Below, piece by piece: positions 5,383 through 37,406 of a DNA stretch of 64,000 nt. The first letter of the stretch is position 1, and the number at the start of each line of letters is the position of its first letter. The notes beneath the pieces are model-generated. The model saw nothing but the letters and a program-made list of their open reading frames with translations, did no database searches and was not told the DNA's origin. The position numbers were made by a program, and so were the translations under genes. The DNA lies in NCBI GenBank assembly GCA_013177855.1, contig JABLYA010000001.1, positions 1,527,573 through 1,591,572 of the forward strand. The letters run 5' to 3'. The DNA is from Ignavibacteria bacterium (GTDB taxonomy: Bacteria; Bacteroidota; Ignavibacteria; Ch128b).

Positions 5383-6420
5383 ATGAAAATGATGAAAAAG
5401 ATTTTTTACTCAGCTTTGATTTTTGTTATGATATTAAATTATGCTTTTGCACAGACATTCAAAACAAATGTTTCAAAGAGAGGAACTACTGCCGCACCTT
5501 TCCTCTCAATTGGTCAGAGTGCAAGAGCAATTGGTATGGGTTCAGCTTTCGTCGGTGCCGTAAATGATGTGAGCGCAATTTACTGGAATCCTGCTGGACT
5601 AACTAAAGCACAGGGCGGACAAATTCTAGTCGATTACACAAACTGGATTGCCGGCACCAAATACAATTTCCTCGCTGTGAGTTATAATATTGGTGATTAT
5701 GGAACAGTTGGTGTTAGTTTTACAGGTTCTAATATTGGTGATATGAAAGTCACAACGATTGAAGAACCTTGGGGAACTGGTGAGGTCTTCTCCGCTACCG
5801 ATATGGCAATCAGTCTTGCTTATGCTTTGCAATTAACAGATAGATTTTCCATTGGGTTCAATCCTAAATTTGTCTATCAGGGAATCTGGAAAATGAGTGC
5901 AAGTGCTTTTGCAATTGATATGGGTGTTCAATATGTAACTCCATTTGATGATGCAATTCTTGCAATGTCAATTTCAAATTTTGGAACGACAATGCAGCTT
6001 CTTGGCCAGTCGAATCTTGTTTTGTATGATCCAGATCCTTACACAACTGGTAATAACGGCAAAATTCCAGCTTATCTCGAAACAAAAACTTACGATTTGC
6101 CGCTGACATTTAGAGTTGGTGTTGCATATAATCCAATTAGATCTGCAAATCACAGATTGACTTTTGCATTCGATGCTTTGCATCCAAGTGATGACTATGA
6201 AAGTGTCAATGTTGGTTTCGAATATGGATTTCAAGATTTTCTTTTCATTCGTGGTGGATACAAATCTTTATTCCTTGATGACTCAGAAGAATCATTTGCG
6301 CTTGGATTTGGTTTGAAACAAAACCTTATGGGTAATGTAGCTGTTAAAGTTGATTACGCTTATCAAGATTTTGGAAGATTGAACAACATTCAAAAATTTA
6401 CTCTTACTGTTTGTTTCTGA
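5383..6420 (+). CDS. Outer membrane beta-barrel protein, PorV/PorQ-like (possible T9SS shuttle protein)
   Basis: Signal peptide; motif ARAIGMGSAFVGAVNDVSAIYWNPAGL near N-terminus; C-terminal aromatic residue (ends ...TVCF); TGA stop. Confidence 0.5.
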   Translation: MKMMKKIFYSALIFVMILNYAFAQTFKTNVSKRGTTAAPFLSIGQSARAIGMGSAFVGAVNDVSAIYWNPAGLTKAQGGQILVDYTNWIAGTKYNFLAVSYNIGDYGTVGVSFTGSNIGDMKVTTIEEPWGTGEVFSATDMAISLAYALQLTDRFSIGFNPKFVYQGIWKMSASAFAIDMGVQYVTPFDDAILAMSISNFGTTMQLLGQSNLVLYDPDPYTTGNNGKIPAYLETKTYDLPLTFRVGVAYNPIRSANHRLTFAFDALHPSDDYESVNVGFEYGFQDFLFIRGGYKSLFLDDSEESFALGFGLKQNLMGNVAVKVDYAYQDFGRLNNIQKFTLTVCF

Positions 6421-29585: not shown

Positions 29586-31004
29586 ATGGTTGAACAACAG
29601 CGTACCATTGCAAAACCAGTTACAGTTTCAGGGATTGGTATTCATACTGGTACAGAATGTACAATGACATTTAAACCTGCACCAGAAAATTATGGAATTA
29701 GATTTATTCGCGTAGATCTTGGTGGTAATCCAGAAATTCCTGCAATCGTTGAAAATGTTGTTGATGTTTCAAGAGGAACCACAATCGCTGTTGGGGAAGC
29801 GAAGGTTCATACCGTTGAACATGTTCTTGCTGCAGTTTATGGATTGAAAATTGACAACTTAAAAATTGAACTTGATGGAATTGAACCGCCAATTGGTGAT
29901 GGAAGTGCAAAACTTTATGTTGACGCACTTCTTGAAGCTGGTATTGTGGAACAGGAAGCGCCTAAAGATTATTTAGTAATTGATCAAACAGTTATGTATC
30001 ACGACGAAGAAAGAGGAATTGATATAGTTGCACTTCCTCTTGATGACTTTAGAATTACAATAATGATTGATTACAACAATCCTGCTCTCGGAAGTCAGCA
30101 TTCAAGTTTATTTAGCCTTGAAAAAGAATTTATTACAGAGTATTCCACTGCAAGAACATTTTGCTTTTTAAGCGAAGTTGAACAACTCGTTAATCAAAAT
30201 TTAATAAAAGGCGGAGATATTGATAACGCTGTTGTAATTGTTGACAGAAAACTTGATGAAAAAGAATTAAACAATTTAGCTCAAAAGTTAAATATCAAAC
30301 ATCCTTTGTTCATTGGTGAAAATGGAATTCTAAATAACGAGACTCTCCGATTCAAAAATGAACCTGCGCGTCACAAAGTTTTAGATTTGATTGGTGATCT
30401 TGCATTAATTGGTGTCCCGCTTAAAGCACAAATTTTAGCAGCTCGCCCTGGTCATAGAGCAAATGTTGAATTTGCTCGAATGATTAGAAAACTTTATCAG
30501 CAGAAAAAACTTGAGAAGAAATATCAATTTATTAAAAAGGAAGGCGTTGTATTTGATGCAAATGCAATTCTCAGAATCCTTCCCCATCGTTATCCTTTTG
30601 TGCTTGTCGATAAGATCGTTGATTTGAAAATGGGAGAAAGAGTCGTTGGTATTAAAAATGTAACTATCAACGAACCATATTTTCAGGGACATTTCCCGGG
30701 ACAAATGGTTATGCCCGGCGTCTTGATTATTGAAGCTCTTGCCCAAACAAGTGGAATTTTGCTCCTTAATTCTATCCCTGATTTTGAAAATAGTTTAGTT
30801 TACTTTATGGCTATTAACAATGCAAAATTTAGAAAACCAGTTGTTCCAGGTGATCAGTTAGTTTTAGAAGTTGAACTTGTAAATTCAAGAAGCAAAACAT
30901 TCACAATGAAGGGAAGAGCCATCGTTGATGGAAATCTTGCCGCCGAAGCTGAATTTATGGCTGCAGTTGTTCCAAAAGAAGAAAGTCAAAAATCACAGAA
31001 ATAA
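29586..31004 (+). CDS. lpxC/fabZ: Bifunctional UDP-3-O-acyl-GlcNAc deacetylase / 3-hydroxyacyl-ACP dehydratase (LpxC-FabZ fusion)
   Basis: N-terminal LpxC (QRTIAKPVTVSGIGIHTG, HTVEHVLAA) fused to C-terminal FabZ hot-dog domain (LPHRYPFVLVDKIVD...GHFPGQMVMPGVLIIEALAQ). Confidence 0.85.
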   Translation: MVEQQRTIAKPVTVSGIGIHTGTECTMTFKPAPENYGIRFIRVDLGGNPEIPAIVENVVDVSRGTTIAVGEAKVHTVEHVLAAVYGLKIDNLKIELDGIEPPIGDGSAKLYVDALLEAGIVEQEAPKDYLVIDQTVMYHDEERGIDIVALPLDDFRITIMIDYNNPALGSQHSSLFSLEKEFITEYSTARTFCFLSEVEQLVNQNLIKGGDIDNAVVIVDRKLDEKELNNLAQKLNIKHPLFIGENGILNNETLRFKNEPARHKVLDLIGDLALIGVPLKAQILAARPGHRANVEFARMIRKLYQQKKLEKKYQFIKKEGVVFDANAILRILPHRYPFVLVDKIVDLKMGERVVGIKNVTINEPYFQGHFPGQMVMPGVLIIEALAQTSGILLLNSIPDFENSLVYFMAINNAKFRKPVVPGDQLVLEVELVNSRSKTFTMKGRAIVDGNLAAEAEFMAAVVPKEESQKSQK

Positions 31005-31783: not shown

Positions 31784-32526
31784 AAGAATGGTACTATATA
31801 GATACGGGGAAAAACACCGGCACCTTTAATATGGATTTTGATTTAAAGCTTGTTGAAAAAGTTAGGGAAGAAAGAATTCCATTTTTACGTTTCTATCAAT
31901 GGCAGCCTTTTTCTATTTCTTTGGGCTACCATCAAAAAATCGAATCGATTAATTCAAAATTATGCGAAAAAGATTCCATTGATATTGTTAGAAGACCAAC
32001 CGGCGGCAGAGCAATTTTGCATTCCGATGAATTAACCTACTCCGTTACAATACCCCTTGATTTGTTTTCTCCGCACGAAGTTTATTATAAAATTAATTAT
32101 GCATTGCTTGAGGGATTACATCTCTATGATGAAAAATTGAAGTCGGTTGAACTCGAAAAATCACAGATTGATTTCAAGAATTTTTACAAATCATCTCGTT
32201 CTATTCCTTGCTTTTCAAGTTCAGCAAGAAATGAAATTAAATTTCAAAACAAAAAGCTTGTAGGTTCAGCACAAAGAGTTATTAATGATATAACTCTTCA
32301 GCATGGTTCAATTTTAATTGGAGATTATCACAAAAGAATAGTTGATTACCTTAACTTAAATGATGAAGAAAGAAAAATTTTAAGAAGCGATCTTGATGAA
32401 AAAACAATTTCATTAAAAGAAATTCTCAACTCTGAAATTGATCTGGAAAAATTAAAATATTGCTTAAAAAAAGGTTTTGAAAAAGTTTTTGAAGTAAATT
32501 TTATCGAGAGTGAGGTGATGGTATGA
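31780..32526 (+). CDS. Biotin/lipoate A/B protein ligase family protein (lipoate-protein ligase / octanoyltransferase-like)
   Basis: BPL/LPL catalytic-domain-like motifs ([19 protein letters not shown]; KLVGSAQR); 248 aa. Confidence 0.55.
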
Positions 32527-33338
32527 GCTCGACATCAGAAATTAAGAAAGTTACCACGAGAAGAATTCAGGAGATGAAAGATAACGGCGAAAAAATAACT
32601 GCACTTACAGCATATGATTTTTTAATTGCTCGCCTCTGTGATCGTGCTGGGATTGATATTATTCTTGTGGGCGATTCGCTTGGAAATGTTTTTCAAGGAC
32701 ATTTGACAACATTGCCAGTCACTCTCGACGATATGATTTATCATACAAAAGCTGTCCAACGTGGTGTCAAAAGAGCAATGATTGTTGTTGATATGCCCTT
32801 TATGTCTTACCAGACAAACATCGAAGAAGCATTTAGAAATGCTGGAAGAATTATGAAAGAAACTGATGCAGGTGCAGTGAAAATTGAAGGTGGTGAAATT
32901 TTTGCGGAAACAGTTGCAAAGCTTACTGCAAATGGAATTCCAGTAATGGGGCACATTGGATTAACACCACAATCGATTCATCGTTTCGGTGGTTATCAGC
33001 CAAGAGGAAGAGAAAAAGAAGAAGCTCAGCAATTAATTCGTGATGCTAAAGCGCTTGAAGAGGCAGGTGCTTTTGCTATTGTAATTGAAAAAGTACCAGC
33101 AAAACTTGCAAAGAGAATTACTCAATCCGTTAAAATTCCAACAATCGGAATCGGCGCAGGAAAATTTGTTGATGGACAGATACTCGTTGTGTATGATATG
33201 CTTGGTTTGACAGAAGAATTTAATCCTCGATTTGTTAGAAAGTATGCTCATCTCTCTGAAACTATCTTCGATGCATTTAAACATTATATCGAAGATGTTC
33301 GAAGCGGCAATTTCCCAAACGAGAAAGAAAGTTATTAA
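32523..33338 (+). CDS. panB: 3-methyl-2-oxobutanoate hydroxymethyltransferase
   Basis: Typical PanB N-terminus ([37 protein letters not shown]) and K(I)EGG motif. Confidence 0.9.
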
Positions 33339-33653
33339 TAATCACTTCTCCGAGTTTTAATCATTAATCATTTCATAAAAATATTTTTAAACACATCAAA
33401 CAAAATCTTATCTCTCGCATTAAGAATTTTTTTGAGTATGAAAAAGAATTAATAAAAACTTGAATAATGTTTTCTTCTTATTTCAAAAAATCATTCACAT
33501 CATTTTCAACAAGAAAAATTTTTTTATCAACTCACACATCACTCATCAAAAAAAATTTTTAAAATCATTCAAAAACTATTGACAAAAAATTTATAAATCA
33601 TATATTAGCAAGTGAATTAAGTGAATATGTTGAACAAATTGAGAGAGTGATTT

Positions 33654-34736
33654 ATTAGTACTTATACTTCTTCTGGAAAAAAATTAAATGTTGTTCTCAC
33701 CTATAACATTAAGCAGGAAGGTTTTGACACTCCATCGGCTAAGTATCCTTTTCTCAAAAAATTCAATTACAATTCTGAGATCAATCAAGATACTTTTGCA
33801 GAATGGGACACTGAAGAAACAATTAATGCCGTCAGAGATGCACTCGCATTATATCACAATGTAACTTTAGTTGAAGCTGATAATGATGCATTCGAAACAT
33901 TCCGTGAGTTAAATCCCGATATCGTGTTCAATATTGCAGAAGGTTTTAATGGAATTAGTCGTGAAGCCCAGATTCCTGCCATGCTTGAATTCTTAAATAT
34001 TCCATACACTGGTTCAGATCCTGTCACACTTGGAATTTGTTTAGATAAATCTCGAACAAAAGAAATACTTTCGTTTTATAAGATTCCAACCCCTCAATTT
34101 GTTTTGATCGATAAAGATGATGATTATAGTTCAATTGATTTTCCTTTGCCTGCTATCGTAAAACCGGTTGCAGAAGGTTCGAGCAAAGGAATATATAATT
34201 CATCGGTTGTGAGAACAAAAGAAGAATTATTAAGAGAAATTCAAAAAATACATCAGATTTATAATCAATCTGCACTGGTCGAAAAATTTCTGGAAGGAAG
34301 AGAATTTACCGTTGCAATTCTTGGAAATGGAAAAGATGCAAAAGTTTTGCCAATTATTGAGATGAAATTTGAAGAATTGCCGGAAGGAGTTTTGCCAATT
34401 TATTCTTATGAAGCGAAATGGATTTTCGATACAAGAGAAGATCCTCTTGATATTTATGAATGTCCAGCCAATATAGATGAAAGATTAAGAACTCAGATTG
34501 AAAAAATTGCGCTTGCAACATATCGAGTTTTGCGATGCCGAGATTGGTCAAGAATTGATATCAGACTTGATGAAAATGATGTTCCAAATGTACTTGAGAT
34601 AAATCCTTTACCGGGAATTTTGCCCGATCCAAAAGATAATTCCTGTTATCCAAAAGCTGCAAGAGCAGCTGGAATGACTTACGAGGAAATGATAAATGCA
34701 GTTTTGAATGAAGCAAGAAAAAGATATGGAATATGA
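33654..34736 (+). CDS. ATP-grasp ligase, D-Ala-D-Ala ligase-like (first of tandem pair); start codon unresolved
   Basis: Frame is open from 33651 (after TGA 33648-33650) and homologous to the N-terminus of the downstream paralog already from about 33678 (KKLNVVLTYN vs KILLVYNQ), but there is no ATG/GTG/TTG in frame before GTG 33924. ATP-grasp motifs (IVKPV.EGSSKGI, E.FLEGREFTVAILG). Confidence 0.55.
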   Translation: MSTYTSSGKKLNVVLTYNIKQEGFDTPSAKYPFLKKFNYNSEINQDTFAEWDTEETINAVRDALALYHNVTLVEADNDAFETFRELNPDIVFNIAEGFNGISREAQIPAMLEFLNIPYTGSDPVTLGICLDKSRTKEILSFYKIPTPQFVLIDKDDDYSSIDFPLPAIVKPVAEGSSKGIYNSSVVRTKEELLREIQKIHQIYNQSALVEKFLEGREFTVAILGNGKDAKVLPIIEMKFEELPEGVLPIYSYEAKWIFDTREDPLDIYECPANIDERLRTQIEKIALATYRVLRCRDWSRIDIRLDENDVPNVLEINPLPGILPDPKDNSCYPKAARAAGMTYEEMINAVLNEARKRYGI

Positions 34737-35782
34737 AAGAAGATATTAAAATACTTTTAGTATATAACCAACCAGTTGGTGGAATATTCGAAAGTTATGA
34801 TGGCAGGAGGATAAAATCTGAATCTTCTAACTCAATAGATTTATCTGAAGTTGGTGTTTTAGAAGAGTATGAAGAAATTAAAGAAGCATTAACTGAAAGA
34901 GGATATAAAACAGAATCTTTTAATCTTCTTGATAACATTAGTGAATTATGTTCAAAAGTTGGAGCGGGGAATTATGATGTTGTCTTCAATTTAGTTGAGA
35001 GTGTTGGCGGTGAATCAATTAAAGAGATGTATGTTGCTGGAATTTATGAACTTTATAATATCCCTTACACTGGATGCAGCGCTGTTACTCTTGGTCTTTG
35101 TTTGAATAAACATCGTGCAAAATTGCTAATGAAGGGAGCTGGATTTAATGTCCCGGACTGGAAACTTTATGCGAATCCATCAAAAATAATTTTTGATTCA
35201 AAACCTGAATTTCCAATGATTGTGAAACCATCACAGGAAGATGCAAGTGTTGGAATAAGTGAGCAATCGGTTGTATATAATGAAAATGAATTAAAAGAGC
35301 AGCTTGAATTTATTTATAATACTTTAAAGCAGCCAGTTTTGGTTGAAGAATATATTGAAGGAAGAGAAATTAATTCAGCTATTCTTGGTGATAAAGAAAA
35401 AGTCGCTCTTCCACTTTCTGAAATTAGCTTTGATACTTTGCCAGATGATCTACCAAAGATTGTAACTTATGACGGCAAGTGGATTAAAGATAGTCTTTAC
35501 TGTCAAAATACAATCCCTGTGTGCCCTGCACCGCTTGATGATGAACTTGCAGAACATATAAAGAGAATTGCTCTAGATGTTTCAAATCTTTTCGGTTGCC
35601 GAGATTACTGCCGGGTTGATTTTCGAATTGATAAAAATAATAAACCTTACATTCTTGAAGTAAATCCAAATCCAGATATCTCAAAAGATGCTGGTTTTGC
35701 CAGAGCAGCGAAAGCGTACGGATTAGATTATGATGAACTTTTAATTCGCATAATTGAATTTGCTTTAGAAAGAAGAAAATGA
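34733..35782 (+). CDS. ATP-grasp ligase, D-Ala-D-Ala ligase-like (second of tandem pair)
   Basis: Paralog of the preceding ORF (NIPYTGCSAVTLGLCLNKHRAKLLM vs NIPYTGSDPVTLGICLDKSRTKEIL; MIVKPSQEDASVGI; EEYIEGREINSAILG); 4-bp overlap with upstream gene. Confidence 0.7.
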   Translation: MKEDIKILLVYNQPVGGIFESYDGRRIKSESSNSIDLSEVGVLEEYEEIKEALTERGYKTESFNLLDNISELCSKVGAGNYDVVFNLVESVGGESIKEMYVAGIYELYNIPYTGCSAVTLGLCLNKHRAKLLMKGAGFNVPDWKLYANPSKIIFDSKPEFPMIVKPSQEDASVGISEQSVVYNENELKEQLEFIYNTLKQPVLVEEYIEGREINSAILGDKEKVALPLSEISFDTLPDDLPKIVTYDGKWIKDSLYCQNTIPVCPAPLDDELAEHIKRIALDVSNLFGCRDYCRVDFRIDKNNKPYILEVNPNPDISKDAGFARAAKAYGLDYDELLIRIIEFALERRK

Positions 35783-36264
35783 AAATTCGAGAAATGAAAA
35801 AAGAAGACAGAGAAAAATTAAAAGATATTTTATTTAGAACAGAAAATTTTTCACTCGAAGAGAAAGAAGTAGGATTAGAATTAATTGATATTGCCTTGAA
35901 TAATCCAGAACAAAAAGATTATTTCTTCAAAGTTGCCGAAGAAAATGGAAAAGTTTTAGGATATTACTGCATAGGTCATCGTGCATTAACTGATGGAGTT
36001 TATGATTTGTATTGGATTGTTGTTGATCCTGGAACACGCGGTTCAGGAGTTGGATCACAATTGATAAAAGATGCTGAAGAATTTGTTGCATCAAAAAATG
36101 GAAGATTAATTTTAGCAGAAACATCATCGCGTGATGACTATCAAACTACAAGAAATTTTTATAAGAAAAACAATTACAATGAACTTGCTATCATCAAAGA
36201 CTTTTACAAACAGGGTGATAGCTTAATAATCTTCGGCAAATACTTACAAAATCAAGGGGATTAA
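35779..36264 (+). CDS. GNAT family N-acetyltransferase (candidate beta-lysine acetyltransferase)
   Basis: GNAT acetyl-CoA-binding motif IVVDPGTRGSGVGSQL; 161 aa; translationally coupled between ATP-grasp ligase and lysine 2,3-aminomutase. Confidence 0.65.
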   Translation: MKIREMKKEDREKLKDILFRTENFSLEEKEVGLELIDIALNNPEQKDYFFKVAEENGKVLGYYCIGHRALTDGVYDLYWIVVDPGTRGSGVGSQLIKDAEEFVASKNGRLILAETSSRDDYQTTRNFYKKNNYNELAIIKDFYKQGDSLIIFGKYLQNQGD

Positions 36265-36266
36265 CT

Positions 36267-37406
36267 ATGGAACTCTGGCAAAAAATGATCAGAGACAGCA
36301 TTCATTCAGTCGATCAACTCGTCGAGAAATTTAAACTCGATAGACGAGTGGCTGAAAGACTGGATAAATTCTTCCAGGCTCGCATCAATCCATATTATCT
36401 TAGTTTGATCCGTTATCCTGGCGATCCAATATGGTTGCAATGCGTTCCAGATGAAACAGAACTAAATGATATTGACGCTCCTGAAGATCCTTTGGGTGAA
36501 GATTCAATGAGTCCTGTTCCAAATATAACTCACAGATATCCTGATCGTGTTCTCTTTCTTACAACGAGCCAGTGTGGAATGTACTGTCGATTCTGTACAA
36601 GGAAGAGAAAGGTTGGTGATTCATCCAAAATTTCAATGCGAGGTCTTGAGGCAGCATTCAAATACATTGAAGAGCATAAAGAAATTCGAGATGTTATTCT
36701 TTCTGGTGGCGATCCATTGATGTTAACTGATGCAATGCTTGAAAAAATTCTTCAAAGATTAAGACAAATTCCTCATGTTGAAATAATTCGTCTCGGTACT
36801 CGAATGCCAGTAGTTCTTCCACATCGAATTACCCCGAAACTTGTAAGGATGCTGAAGAAATATCATCCAATTTATGTGAATACTCATTTTAATCATCCCT
36901 GGGAAATTACTCCTGAAAGCAAACGAGCCTGCGAACTTTTAGCCGATGCTGGAATTCCGATTGGTAATCAAACCGTACTTATGAAAGGCGTAAATGATGA
37001 TCCAGAAGTTATTAAAGAACTTTTCAGAAAATTACTTTTAATGAGAGTTAGACCTTATTACTTGTATCAAGCTGATTTGACAAAAGGTGCAAATCATTTC
37101 AGAACACCTGTGAAAGTCGGTCTCGAAATTATGGATAAATTGCGTGGACATACATCGGGACTTGCAGTTCCATATTATGTTATTGATGCACCTGGCGGTG
37201 GTGGAAAAATTCCATTGCTTCCTCAATACGTTTTGTATCAGGATGATGAAAAATTAATTCTTAGAAATTACAAATATGAAACTTTCGTTTATCCAGATGT
37301 TAAGCCTGAAGAATACAGATCCGGTATCCCTGTTCAAACAGAAACTTACGAAAGCAATTCAACTATTTCGTTACCTGTAATTCAATACCAGAACGAAAAC
37401 GAATGA
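36267..37406 (+). CDS. kamA: Lysine 2,3-aminomutase (radical SAM, KamA family)
   Basis: HRYPDRVLFLTTSQCGMYCRFCTRKRKVG (CxxxCxxC radical SAM cluster in KamA context); SGGDPLML motif; 379 aa. Confidence 0.85.
   Translation: MELWQKMIRDSIHSVDQLVEKFKLDRRVAERLDKFFQARINPYYLSLIRYPGDPIWLQCVPDETELNDIDAPEDPLGEDSMSPVPNITHRYPDRVLFLTTSQCGMYCRFCTRKRKVGDSSKISMRGLEAAFKYIEEHKEIRDVILSGGDPLMLTDAMLEKILQRLRQIPHVEIIRLGTRMPVVLPHRITPKLVRMLKKYHPIYVNTHFNHPWEITPESKRACELLADAGIPIGNQTVLMKGVNDDPEVIKELFRKLLLMRVRPYYLYQADLTKGANHFRTPVKVGLEIMDKLRGHTSGLAVPYYVIDAPGGGGKIPLLPQYVLYQDDEKLILRNYKYETFVYPDVKPEEYRSGIPVQTETYESNSTISLPVIQYQNENE

What the first reader, a model, noticed from the sequence alone, without database searches (positions are those of the whole stretch)
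33627..33926. First ATP-grasp gene has no canonical start codon; short upstream ORF ends in TGA just before the homologous reading frame
Homology to the downstream paralog begins near 33678, but the frame (open from 33651) has no ATG/GTG/TTG until GTG 33924, which would delete about 80 conserved residues. An in-frame ATG at 33627 is followed 7 codons later by TGA (33648-33650), giving MLNKLRE-stop directly abutting the frame; an A7 homopolymer lies at 33677-33683. Possibilities: rare initiation codon (ATT 33654), a regulatory leader peptide with reinitiation, stop-codon readthrough, or a sequencing/assembly error or early pseudogenisation. TGA is a genuine stop elsewhere (e.g. the gene ending at 6420).
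Basis: seen in the sequence. Interest (0 to 1): 0.5.

Follow-up and report, generated by a model that had tools for sequence, protein, structure and literature searches.

The report
Conserved AUU start behind tiny uORF
The first gene of a four-gene operon in this Ignavibacteria genome is intact and most likely starts at a rare AUU codon just after a 7-codon upstream mini-ORF, a layout shared by related genomes and regularly mis-annotated by gene finders.

Summary
An ATG at 33627 is followed by 7 codons and TGA 33648-50. The homologous frame opens at 33651 and has no ATG/GTG/TTG until GTG 33924.

It is not a sequencing error, a pseudogene or readthrough. At least 13 independent assemblies carry the same TGA. 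Other relatives have the stop at codon 6 (TGA) or codon 4 (TAA). The coding sequence is under purifying selection.

About ten Ignavibacteriales and Melioribacteraceae lineages (53-100% aa identity) keep a Shine-Dalgarno motif. An in-frame ATT, ATA or ATC follows it after 3-9 nt, 8-10 codons before the first beta-strand. In 11 of 25 loci no canonical start could give the conserved protein. Gene callers place the start at 14 or more different positions.

The best reading is that translation starts at ATT 33654, 6 nt after GAGAGAG. In the window's clade a short uORF ends 3-15 nt upstream, and the SD there is weaker (-3.8 against -6.8 kcal/mol). This suggests termination-reinitiation, with the same geometry as E. 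coli thrS-infC (stop, 3 nt, AUU). No experiment supports either step.

It is a new member of a known kind: a conserved non-AUG start, as in infC, pcnB, cvfC1 and ccpN. Interest is moderate.

The parts
33579..33606 (+). Sigma-70-type promoter, TTGACA (33579-84), 16-nt spacer, TATATT (33601-06). The predicted transcription start is about 33612-33615.
   Evidence: It matches 11 of 12 consensus positions. It is conserved (0.90) in all close orthologs while the rest of the intergenic region is not (0.57). The same TTGACA...TATATT is seen in distant orthologs. The transcription start is inferred and has not been mapped.
33627..33650 (+). Seven-codon upstream ORF, ATG TTG AAC AAA TTG AGA GAG TGA (MLNKLRE-stop), in the same frame as the gene.
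   Evidence: Sequence. The ATG is present in all 20 loci of the clade with 79% or more aa identity, always with an in-frame stop before the ATT: TGA at codon 8, TGA at codon 6 or TAA at codon 4. Conservation is 0.925, including third positions at 0.917. The ATG has almost no SD (-1.4 kcal/mol).
33641..33647 (+). Shine-Dalgarno-like GAGAGAG, lying inside the uORF and 6 nt upstream of the ATT.
   Evidence: The duplex with the canonical anti-SD is -4.3 kcal/mol, against a median of -3.5 for genes in this window. A GAGAG/GAGAA core is kept in every clade member. It is positionally homologous to GGAG(AA) in distant orthologs.
33654..33656 (+). Proposed initiation codon ATT (AUU).
   Evidence: It is the only codon one mismatch from ATG between the stop and the conserved domain. 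An ATT, ATC or ATA sits at the homologous position behind an SD in 25 of 25 Ignavibacteriales/Melioribacteraceae loci examined.
33654..34736 (+). ATP-grasp gene 1 (D-Ala-D-Ala-ligase-like, 360 aa counted from the ATT). Its stop TGA overlaps the ATG of gene 2 (ATGA).
   Evidence: Pfam PF07478 at 1e-36. Orthologs are conserved over the full length. Conservation at codon positions 1/2/3 is 0.92/0.96/0.71. The AlphaFold2 model has pLDDT 80.5 with beta-1 at residues 12-17.
33684..33686 (+). Leu codon TTA at the position where many gene callers place the start in orthologs (TTG there).
   Evidence: The codon alternates TTA/TTG/CTG among close relatives, with at least 3 switches on the tree. It therefore behaves as an internal Leu codon. 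It is ATG in Kryptonia and Deltaproteobacteria orthologs.
33677..33683 (+). A7 run, part of GGA AAA AAA (Gly-Lys-Lys).
   Evidence: Orthologs read GAA AAG AAA, GAA AAT AAA or GAT AAA AGA, in frame in all of them. No slippage is needed.
33924..33926 (+). First canonical in-frame codon (GTG); not a plausible start.
   Evidence: It is residue 91 counted from the ATT. Starting here would remove beta-1, two helices and beta-2 of the N-terminal domain and about 35 invariant or near-invariant columns. The SD here is -2.2 kcal/mol.
34733..37406 (+). Rest of the operon: ATP-grasp 2 (34733-35782), GNAT acetyltransferase (35779-36264) and a KamA-family radical-SAM aminomutase (36267-37406). Starts overlap or nearly abut the preceding stops.
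   Evidence: The same four genes occur in the same order in L003, L005, L045 and L048.

Best explanation
The first ATP-grasp gene is intact. It is most likely translated from the AUU codon at 33654-33656, which lies 6 nt downstream of an SD-like GAGAGAG in an unusually unstructured leader. The leader is transcribed from the conserved TTGACA-16-TATATT promoter at 33579-33606. An SD followed by an Ile-codon start (AUU, AUA or AUC) is the ancestral arrangement for this gene across Ignavibacteriales and Melioribacteraceae. In the window's clade a 3-7-codon uORF starting at ATG 33627 has been added. It always terminates 3-15 nt before the AUU, and the SD in this clade is weaker. I infer that ribosomes terminating at UGA 33648-50 reinitiate at the AUU 3 nt downstream, in addition to de novo SD-directed initiation. 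This is the same stop, 3 nt, AUU geometry as the E. coli thrS-infC junction. The expected result is low, initiation-fidelity (IF3)-sensitive translation of the first cistron of a tightly coupled four-gene operon. What is shown: the sequence anatomy, its conservation, the absence of a canonical start, and purifying selection on the gene. What is inferred: use of the AUU, translation of the uORF, reinitiation, and IF3 sensitivity. The confidence of 0.7 applies to the AUU start; the reinitiation role of the uORF is less certain, at about 0.35-0.4.
For: (1) The gene is functional. Codon-position conservation is 0.92/0.96/0.71, orthologs are conserved over the full length, and the fold is confidently modelled.
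(2) No canonical start can give the conserved protein in the window, L002/31/32, L005, L007, L010/35, L011, L014, L016, L017/37/38, L018 or L039/40. That is 11 of 25 distinct loci.
(3) An in-frame ATT, ATA or ATC lies behind GGAG, GAGG or GAGAG in 25 of 25 loci. The spacing is 3-9 nt from the SD core, 8-10 codons before the conserved Leu. Extended database gene calls show the same thing as a 'G-E-x-I-L-S-S' peptide, which is GGA GAA nnn ATT translated.
(4) The Leu codon where callers put the start alternates TTA/TTG/CTG.
(5) Every ATG-bearing leader has an in-frame stop. TGA at codon 6 and TAA at codon 4 each arose twice on the tree, and TGA at codon 8 was lost only where another stop lies upstream, in 3 of 3 cases.
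(6) The SD is weaker in the uORF clade (-3.8 kcal/mol, n=13) than in orthologs without a uORF (-6.8, n=11). The latter have no ATG in any frame within 45 nt upstream.
(7) The leader plus the first 11 codons are conserved at all codon positions (0.90-0.93, against 0.71 for third positions of the CDS). This stretch is less structured than all 200 shuffles.
(8) Precedents exist. The E. coli infC junction UAA GGU AUU draws roughly equally on reinitiation and de novo initiation (PMC3592434). Conserved AUU/AUA starts with strong SDs in S. aureus cvfC1 (the first gene of its operon), ccpN and infC give about 10% of AUG expression (PMC13009471).
Against: There is no experimental evidence: no N-terminal peptide, no ribosome profiling and no mapped transcription start. 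ATH codons are common in a 34% GC genome, about 9% per codon, so any single occurrence proves little; the argument rests on positional conservation. The window's SD, GAGAGAG, is only of average strength. The anti-SD sequence was assumed, not read from this organism's 16S rRNA. In orthologs with TTG at the Leu position, initiation there cannot be excluded. In-frame stops are expected by chance in about 45% of 8-codon AT-rich stretches, and the clade members are related, so the case for selection on the uORF rests on few events. uORF translation could repress the gene by occluding the SD rather than feed it.
Confidence: 0.7

Rival explanations
1. The AUU at 33654 is the start, but the upstream ATG-to-stop is incidental or purely inhibitory. 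It would be an untranslated piece of 5' UTR, or a decoy that lowers access to the SD, with no productive reinitiation.
For: ATG 33627 has essentially no SD (-1.4 kcal/mol). Distant orthologs manage with the SD and ATH alone. In-frame stops are frequent by chance in AT-rich DNA. The uORF overlaps the SD, so a translating ribosome would mask it.
Against: The ATG is kept in 20 of 20 clade loci. Stops were replaced in a compensated way, with TGA at codon 8 lost only when another stop lies upstream. The SD weakened exactly in the clade that has the ATG. The stop lies within 3-15 nt of the AUU, a range in which reinitiation is efficient in E. coli reporters.
Confidence: 0.25
2. Translation starts at the Leu codon (33684, TTA here, TTG in many relatives) or at another non-canonical codon downstream of the ATT. 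The conserved Ile codon would then be just 5' UTR.
For: Kryptonia, Deltaproteobacteria and other orthologs start with ATG exactly at this position. 52 of 120 database calls start there. The A-rich stretch before it could support SD-independent initiation.
Against: The codon is TTA in the window and in at least five other lineages, and CTG in L020. No SD is conserved in front of it: GGA is replaced by GAA or GAT in relatives. A strong SD is conserved about 35 nt upstream, too far to serve this codon. The stretch between the ATH and the Leu is always in frame and free of stops.
Confidence: 0.06
3. Translation starts at ATG 33627 and the UGA is decoded, by readthrough, selenocysteine or Trp, giving a 369-aa protein.
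For: The peptide frame is continuous across the TGA. The 68%-identical lineage (L012, P0018, P0021) has an open frame from a TTG at the same place (MSNKQRKHFIS). Logan gene calls read 'W' there.
Against: The 'W' comes from code-4 gene calling, which also reads the gene's real terminal TGA as W. TGA ends 17 of 35 ORFs here. Relatives have TAA at codon 4, TGA at codon 6 or two stops, and in L003 the uORF is out of frame. No hairpin follows the UGA, and the leader is less structured than shuffles. The aligned residues are His, Leu or Glu, not Cys. The window contains no tRNA-Sec.
Confidence: 0.02
4. A base-call or assembly error, or a recent nonsense mutation that has made the gene a pseudogene.
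For: A single-base change (TGA to TGG, or TTA to TTG) would restore an ordinary ORF. NCBI annotation of a 90% relative is truncated to 301 aa.
Against: The identical TGA is found in 13 or more independent assemblies from different projects. The downstream 360 codons are intact and under purifying selection across 53-100% identity. More distant lineages also lack a canonical start.
Confidence: 0.01

Closest known systems
E. coli infC (IF3) AUU start and the thrS-infC junction UAA GGU AUU
   Same: Both have an Ile-codon start behind an SD. In both, a preceding ORF stops exactly 3 nt upstream of the AUU (here UGA UUU AUU). In reporters, expression is expected from a mix of reinitiation and de novo initiation (PMC3592434).
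   Different: Here the upstream ORF is a 3-7-codon mini-ORF, not a full gene. The downstream gene is a metabolic ATP-grasp ligase rather than an initiation factor, so there is no obvious autoregulatory loop. Nothing has been tested experimentally.
Conserved non-canonical starts in Firmicutes: S. aureus cvfC1 (AUU), ccpN (AUA), infC (AUA) (PMC13009471)
   Same: A near-cognate AUU or AUA start is conserved across species together with a well-placed SD. cvfC1 is likewise the first gene of its operon. The role there is to limit translation to about 10% of AUG.
   Different: Those sites were mapped by Ribo-RET and tested with reporters. They rely on extended strong SDs, whereas the window's clade has a degenerate SD plus a uORF. 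The phylum and the gene family are different.
E. coli pcnB AUU start (Binns and Masters 2002, cited in PMC13009471)
   Same: A non-regulatory enzyme gene whose expression is kept low by an AUU start.
   Different: No uORF is involved as far as I recall. That point is from memory and was not checked here.
Bacterial termination-reinitiation / scanning model (Adhin and van Duin 1990; Spanjaard and van Duin 1989, cited in PMC3592434)
   Same: A ribosome terminating within a few nucleotides of a start codon can restart there, with less dependence on the SD.
   Different: The classical cases concern full-length cistrons or engineered nonsense codons. A natural mini-uORF feeding a non-AUG start is inferred here, not demonstrated.

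Membership tests
Genes with a conserved non-canonical AUU/AUA/AUC start (infC, pcnB, cvfC1, ccpN type) | No in-frame ATG/GTG/TTG can produce the conserved protein | tested here: met
   In the window the first canonical codon is at residue 91. The same holds in 11 of 25 distinct orthologous loci. That codon would delete the N-terminal domain.
Genes with a conserved non-canonical AUU/AUA/AUC start (infC, pcnB, cvfC1, ccpN type) | A near-cognate codon conserved at the homologous position across species | tested here: met
   ATT, ATC or ATA is present in 25 of 25 Ignavibacteriales/Melioribacteraceae loci. A conserved 'I' appears in all extended gene calls.
Genes with a conserved non-canonical AUU/AUA/AUC start (infC, pcnB, cvfC1, ccpN type) | A Shine-Dalgarno sequence at functional spacing | tested here: met
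   GGAG, GAGG or AAGGAG lies 3-9 nt upstream in distant orthologs (-5.6 to -9.2 kcal/mol). In the window GAGAGAG lies 6 nt upstream (-4.3, about the median for genes in this window). The anti-SD sequence was assumed to be canonical.
Genes with a conserved non-canonical AUU/AUA/AUC start (infC, pcnB, cvfC1, ccpN type) | Initiation at that codon demonstrated, and sensitive to IF3 | not testable with these tools
   This needs Ribo-RET, N-terminal proteomics or reporter assays.
Regulatory uORF / leader peptide acting by termination-reinitiation | A start codon inside the transcript with a stop within about 20 nt of the downstream start | tested here: inconclusive
   The stop lies 3 nt (window), 9 nt or 15 nt before the ATT. 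The ATG lies about 13 nt downstream of the transcription start predicted from the promoter, but that start has not been mapped and the ATG lacks an SD.
Regulatory uORF / leader peptide acting by termination-reinitiation | The uORF (start plus stop) is conserved among relatives | tested here: met
   It is present in 20 of 20 loci with 79% or more identity, and stops were replaced in a compensated way. It is absent from more distant orthologs, which have stronger SDs instead.
Regulatory uORF / leader peptide acting by termination-reinitiation | Downstream translation depends on uORF translation | not testable with these tools
   This needs mutagenesis of ATG 33627 and of the stop.
UGA recoding (selenocysteine or programmed readthrough) | UGA conserved at one codon, a downstream RNA structure, and Cys or Sec in homologs | tested here: not met
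   The stops are TAA or TGA at codons 4, 6 or 8. The leader is less structured than all shuffles. The aligned residues are His, Leu or Glu. Rfam gives no hit.
Pseudogene or sequencing artefact | The lesion is private to one assembly and constraint is relaxed | tested here: not met
   The lesion occurs in 13 or more assemblies. Codon-position conservation is 0.92/0.96/0.71.
D-alanine--D-alanine ligase (Ddl) proper | Score above the curated NCBIfam/TIGRFAM Ddl cut-offs | tested here: not met
   Pfam Dala_Dala_lig_C matches at 1e-36. The best NCBIfam Ddl subfamily score is 199 bits against a cut-off of 243. The protein is therefore a Ddl-like ATP-grasp ligase of unknown substrate.

The most novel reading that the evidence does not exclude
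In one Ignavibacteria clade a strong Shine-Dalgarno site driving an AUU start has been partly replaced by a 3-7-codon mini-uORF. The stop of this uORF hands ribosomes to the AUU by reinitiation. That would be a natural, lineage-specific swap between two ways of loading ribosomes onto a non-AUG start. It would make the whole beta-amino-acid/ATP-grasp operon responsive to initiation fidelity (IF3) or to events at the 5' end.
Probability: 0.35. Interest if true: 0.6.

Novelty: new member of a known kind. Interest (0 to 1): 0.5.

Why it matters
This would be a new, well-supported comparative case of a non-AUG (AUU/AUA/AUC) start conserved across an order of bacteria, in a phylum where translation initiation has hardly been studied. 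It also explains why public databases hold truncated, over-extended and code-4 versions of this protein. Annotation pipelines that allow only ATG/GTG/TTG will always miscall it. The uORF-plus-AUU layout gives a simple, testable model for how mini-uORFs and weak start codons jointly set expression of an operon.

Tried and rejected
- **Known RNA family.** Rfam found nothing in the leader (E-value mode) or in the whole window. There are no tRNA genes in the window.
- **Riboswitch, SECIS or attenuator structure.** The leader folds worse than all 200 shuffles, and no terminator-like site was found.
- **A7 slippage or frameshift.** The run is variable and in frame in all orthologs.
- **Out-of-frame GTG 33647.** It gives only GTG ATT TAT TAG. 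It is in frame only in L003/L036, after a 1-nt deletion, and there it abuts the SD with no spacing.
- **Second promoter-like site 33639-33668.** Its -10 (TATACT) is not conserved; relatives have TCTACT or TTTACT.
- **Paralog comparison for the N-terminus.** The BLASTP alignment starts only at residue 87, so it does not help locate the start.
- **Literature on the operon's function.** The search returned only ablA/ablB osmolyte papers, none with the two ATP-grasp genes. NCBIfam gives no equivalog.
- **A/T-tract motif AAAAAWTTTTT.** It is not enriched in the window as a whole: 6 matches against 4.4 expected.

Full report
**The observation**

The sequence reads ATG(33627) TTG AAC AAA TTG AGA GAG TGA(33648-50) TTT ATT(33654) AGT ACT TAT ACT TCT TCT GGA AAA AAA TTA(33684) AAT GTT GTT.... 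The frame is open from 33651, and the first in-frame ATG/GTG/TTG is GTG 33924. The A7 run is at 33677-33683.

The window is 33.7% GC and uses the standard code. TGA ends 17 of 35 long ORFs, several of them in ATGA overlaps. No other long ORF in the window lacks a nearby canonical start.

The ORF is a D-Ala-D-Ala-ligase-like ATP-grasp protein (Pfam PF07478, 1e-36). It is the first gene of a tightly packed operon:
- ATP-grasp 1.
- ATP-grasp 2, 34733-35782. It is 36% identical to ATP-grasp 1, but BLASTP aligns them only from residue 87.
- A GNAT acetyltransferase.
- A KamA-family radical-SAM aminomutase.

**It is not an artefact, a pseudogene or recoding**

A protein search found close relatives named Ignavibacteria, Ignavibacteriaceae, Melioribacter or Kryptonium. 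The 100-90% hits of 377 aa read 'MLNKLREWFIST...RKRYGIWKKILKYF'. Both the internal TGA and the gene's real terminal TGA are translated as W, so these are gene calls made with genetic code 4 and are themselves artefacts.

DNA of orthologous loci shows the same ATG ... TGA(codon 8) TTT ATT in at least 13 independent assemblies: L001, L005, L007-L010, L028-L030 and L033-L035, besides the window. Other relatives differ:
- L002/L031/L032 have TGA at codon 6, with codon 8 = TTA.
- L011 has TGA at codon 6, with codon 8 = GAA.
- L010/L035 add TAA at codon 4 to the TGA at codon 8.
- L003/L036 have TAA at codon 4 plus a 1-nt deletion that puts the uORF out of frame with the gene.

Stops of two kinds at three positions, two stops in one leader and a frame change all rule out readthrough and selenocysteine. 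In addition, no structure follows the UGA: RNA 33610-33700 folds to -6.4 kcal/mol against -12.6 ± 2.6 for shuffles, and all 200 shuffles fold at least as well. Rfam finds nothing.

The coding region is under purifying selection. In a 15-sequence alignment, conservation at codon positions 1/2/3 is 0.92/0.96/0.71.

An AlphaFold2 model (pLDDT 80.5) places beta-1 at residues 12-17, counted from the ATT (N-V-V-L-T-Y). GTG 33924 corresponds to residue 91, so starting there would delete most of the N-terminal domain and many invariant columns.

**Where translation starts**

Gene callers disagree badly. The 120 best homologs start at 14 or more different positions:
- 52 start at the Leu of 'LNVALTYN', called as M or L.
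- Some are cut to 251-301 aa.
- Some run upstream through the promoter, where 'LLDK' is TTGACA translated.

The Leu codon alternates TTA/TTG/CTG among close relatives, with at least three switches on an NJ tree. It therefore behaves as an internal Leu codon, not a start.

In more distant Ignavibacteriales and Melioribacteraceae orthologs (53-68% identity: L012-L018, L020, L037-L040, L045-L047) the leader consistently shows a strong SD (GGAG, GGAGAA, GAGGA or AAGGAG). An in-frame ATT, ATA or ATC follows it after 3-9 nt, 8-10 codons before the Leu. Often an in-frame stop lies only 3-14 codons further upstream, and there is no ATG/GTG/TTG at all. Two examples:
- L014: TAA agt gac GGA GAA ttt ttt ATA.
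- L016: TGA GGA ttt tgt ATC.

In total, 25 of 25 distinct loci have an SD followed by an ATH codon, and 11 of 25 have no usable canonical start. The window's GAGAGAG-tgattt-ATT is positionally homologous to GGAG-ttttt-ATA. By contrast, Kryptonia (L048), Deltaproteobacteria and other outgroup orthologs begin with a plain ATG at the Leu position.

ATT is also the only codon one mismatch from ATG between the stop and the Leu in the window. I therefore conclude that ATT 33654 is the initiation codon. This is strong comparative inference; there are no experimental data.

**The uORF**

All 20 loci of the clade with 79% or more identity keep the ATG at the position of 33627, and each has at least one in-frame stop before the ATT. 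On the tree, TGA at codon 6 arose twice (L011 and the nested L031) and TAA at codon 4 arose twice (L003, L010). TGA at codon 8 was lost only in the three lineages that have another stop upstream.

The leader from the ATG to the 11th codon of the gene is conserved at all codon positions (0.90-0.93). This compares with 0.71 for third positions of the CDS and 0.57 for the upstream intergenic region. A GAGAG/GAGAA core is never changed.

The predicted SD duplex is weaker in the uORF clade (mean -3.8 kcal/mol, n=13) than in orthologs without a uORF (mean -6.8, n=11). None of the latter has an ATG in any frame within 45 nt upstream.

The promoter TTGACA-16-TATATT (33579-33606, 11 of 12 matches) is conserved. 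It places the transcription start about 13 nt before the ATG, which itself has no SD (-1.4 kcal/mol).

The junction UGA UUU AUU has the same geometry as E. coli thrS-infC, UAA GGU AUU. For that junction, reporters indicate roughly equal contributions from reinitiation and de novo initiation (PMC3592434). My working model is that ribosomes loaded at the 5'-proximal ATG translate 3-7 codons, terminate, and restart at the AUU. This would supplement a weakened SD. It is an inference; an inhibitory or incidental uORF remains possible.

**Comparison with known systems**

Conserved Ile-codon starts are known: infC (AUU or AUA), E. coli pcnB, and S. aureus cvfC1 (AUU, first gene of its operon) and ccpN (AUA). 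All have well-placed SDs and give about 10% of AUG output (PMC13009471). The present case meets the features of that class that can be tested from sequence: no canonical start, a conserved near-cognate codon, and an SD at functional spacing. Proof of use and IF3 sensitivity could not be tested. It is therefore a new member of a known kind. The clade-specific mini-uORF is a possible new variation.

The protein is Ddl-like but scores below the curated Ddl cut-offs (199 against 243 bits). The aminomutase scores below the AblA cut-off (476 against 525). The operon's product is unknown.

**Verdict**

- Confidence that the gene starts at ATT 33654 is about 0.7.
- Confidence that the uORF contributes by reinitiation is about 0.35-0.4.
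- Interest is moderate (0.5). This is a clean comparative example of a conserved non-AUG start in an under-studied phylum, with practical consequences for annotation, but the mechanism class is already known.

Noticed in passing
window 33654-37406; L003 6001-9756; L005 6001-9567; L045 5001-8790; L048 5001-8749: A four-gene operon is conserved in order across Ignavibacteria, Melioribacter and Kryptonia: two Ddl-like ATP-grasp ligases, a GNAT acetyltransferase and a KamA-family 2,3-aminomutase. The aminomutase scores below the AblA and Glu-2,3-aminomutase cut-offs, and no paper found describes this combination. It may make an acetylated beta-amino-acid peptide or solute.
   Followed up: partly
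P0001-P0003, P0005, P0007 (Logan contigs, e.g. L001, L002): Database proteins of 377 aa translate both the leader TGA and the gene's real terminal TGA as W and run into the next gene. These are code-4 gene calls on short AT-rich contigs, so the protein collection contains artefactual sequences for this family.
   Followed up: yes
P0034, P0038, P0040, P0045, P0049, P0057, P0060, P0067 and others; L013, L047: Over-long gene calls (386-398 aa) translate straight through the promoter: 'LLDK' or 'LVDK' is TTGACA and 'NIIF' is the -10 box. NCBI calls P0017, P0019, P0023, P0025 and P0026 are instead truncated to 288-301 aa.
   Followed up: yes
L012 about 1465-1540 (lineage of P0018/P0021, 68% identity): This lineage has an open in-frame TTG where the window has its ATG (MSNKQRKHFIS...). 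It also has an out-of-frame ATG 32 nt before the ATC, which would give a uORF of about 21 codons overlapping the start. This is a different leader solution from the window's clade.
   Followed up: partly
window 33340-33600 (e.g. 33514-33524 and 33550-33560): The 290-nt intergenic region upstream of the promoter carries several A5-8/T5-8 tracts (AAAAATTTTTT) about 34-36 nt apart. Similar tracts recur in orthologous spacers although the spacer sequence is otherwise poorly conserved (0.57). They could be a curvature or UP-like element or a regulator site. The motif is not enriched in the window overall.
   Followed up: partly
L003 281-5548 (GCA_900175155.1): In this relative a NiFe-hydrogenase/diaphorase (Hox-like) cluster lies between panB and the ATP-grasp operon. 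In the window panB (32523-33338) is directly upstream.
   Followed up: no
L005 and L048 (both from GCA_017880035.1): One assembly accession holds both an Ignavibacteria-type locus (90% identity, AUU-type leader) and a Kryptonia-type locus (63% identity, ATG start) on large contigs. The record is therefore a mixed or metagenome assembly.
   Followed up: no
window 29586-31004: A 472-aa fused LpxC-FabZ (LpxC plus a FabA-like dehydratase domain) lies within an lpxD-lpxC/fabZ-lpxA cluster. The same gene order is seen in L005.
   Followed up: no
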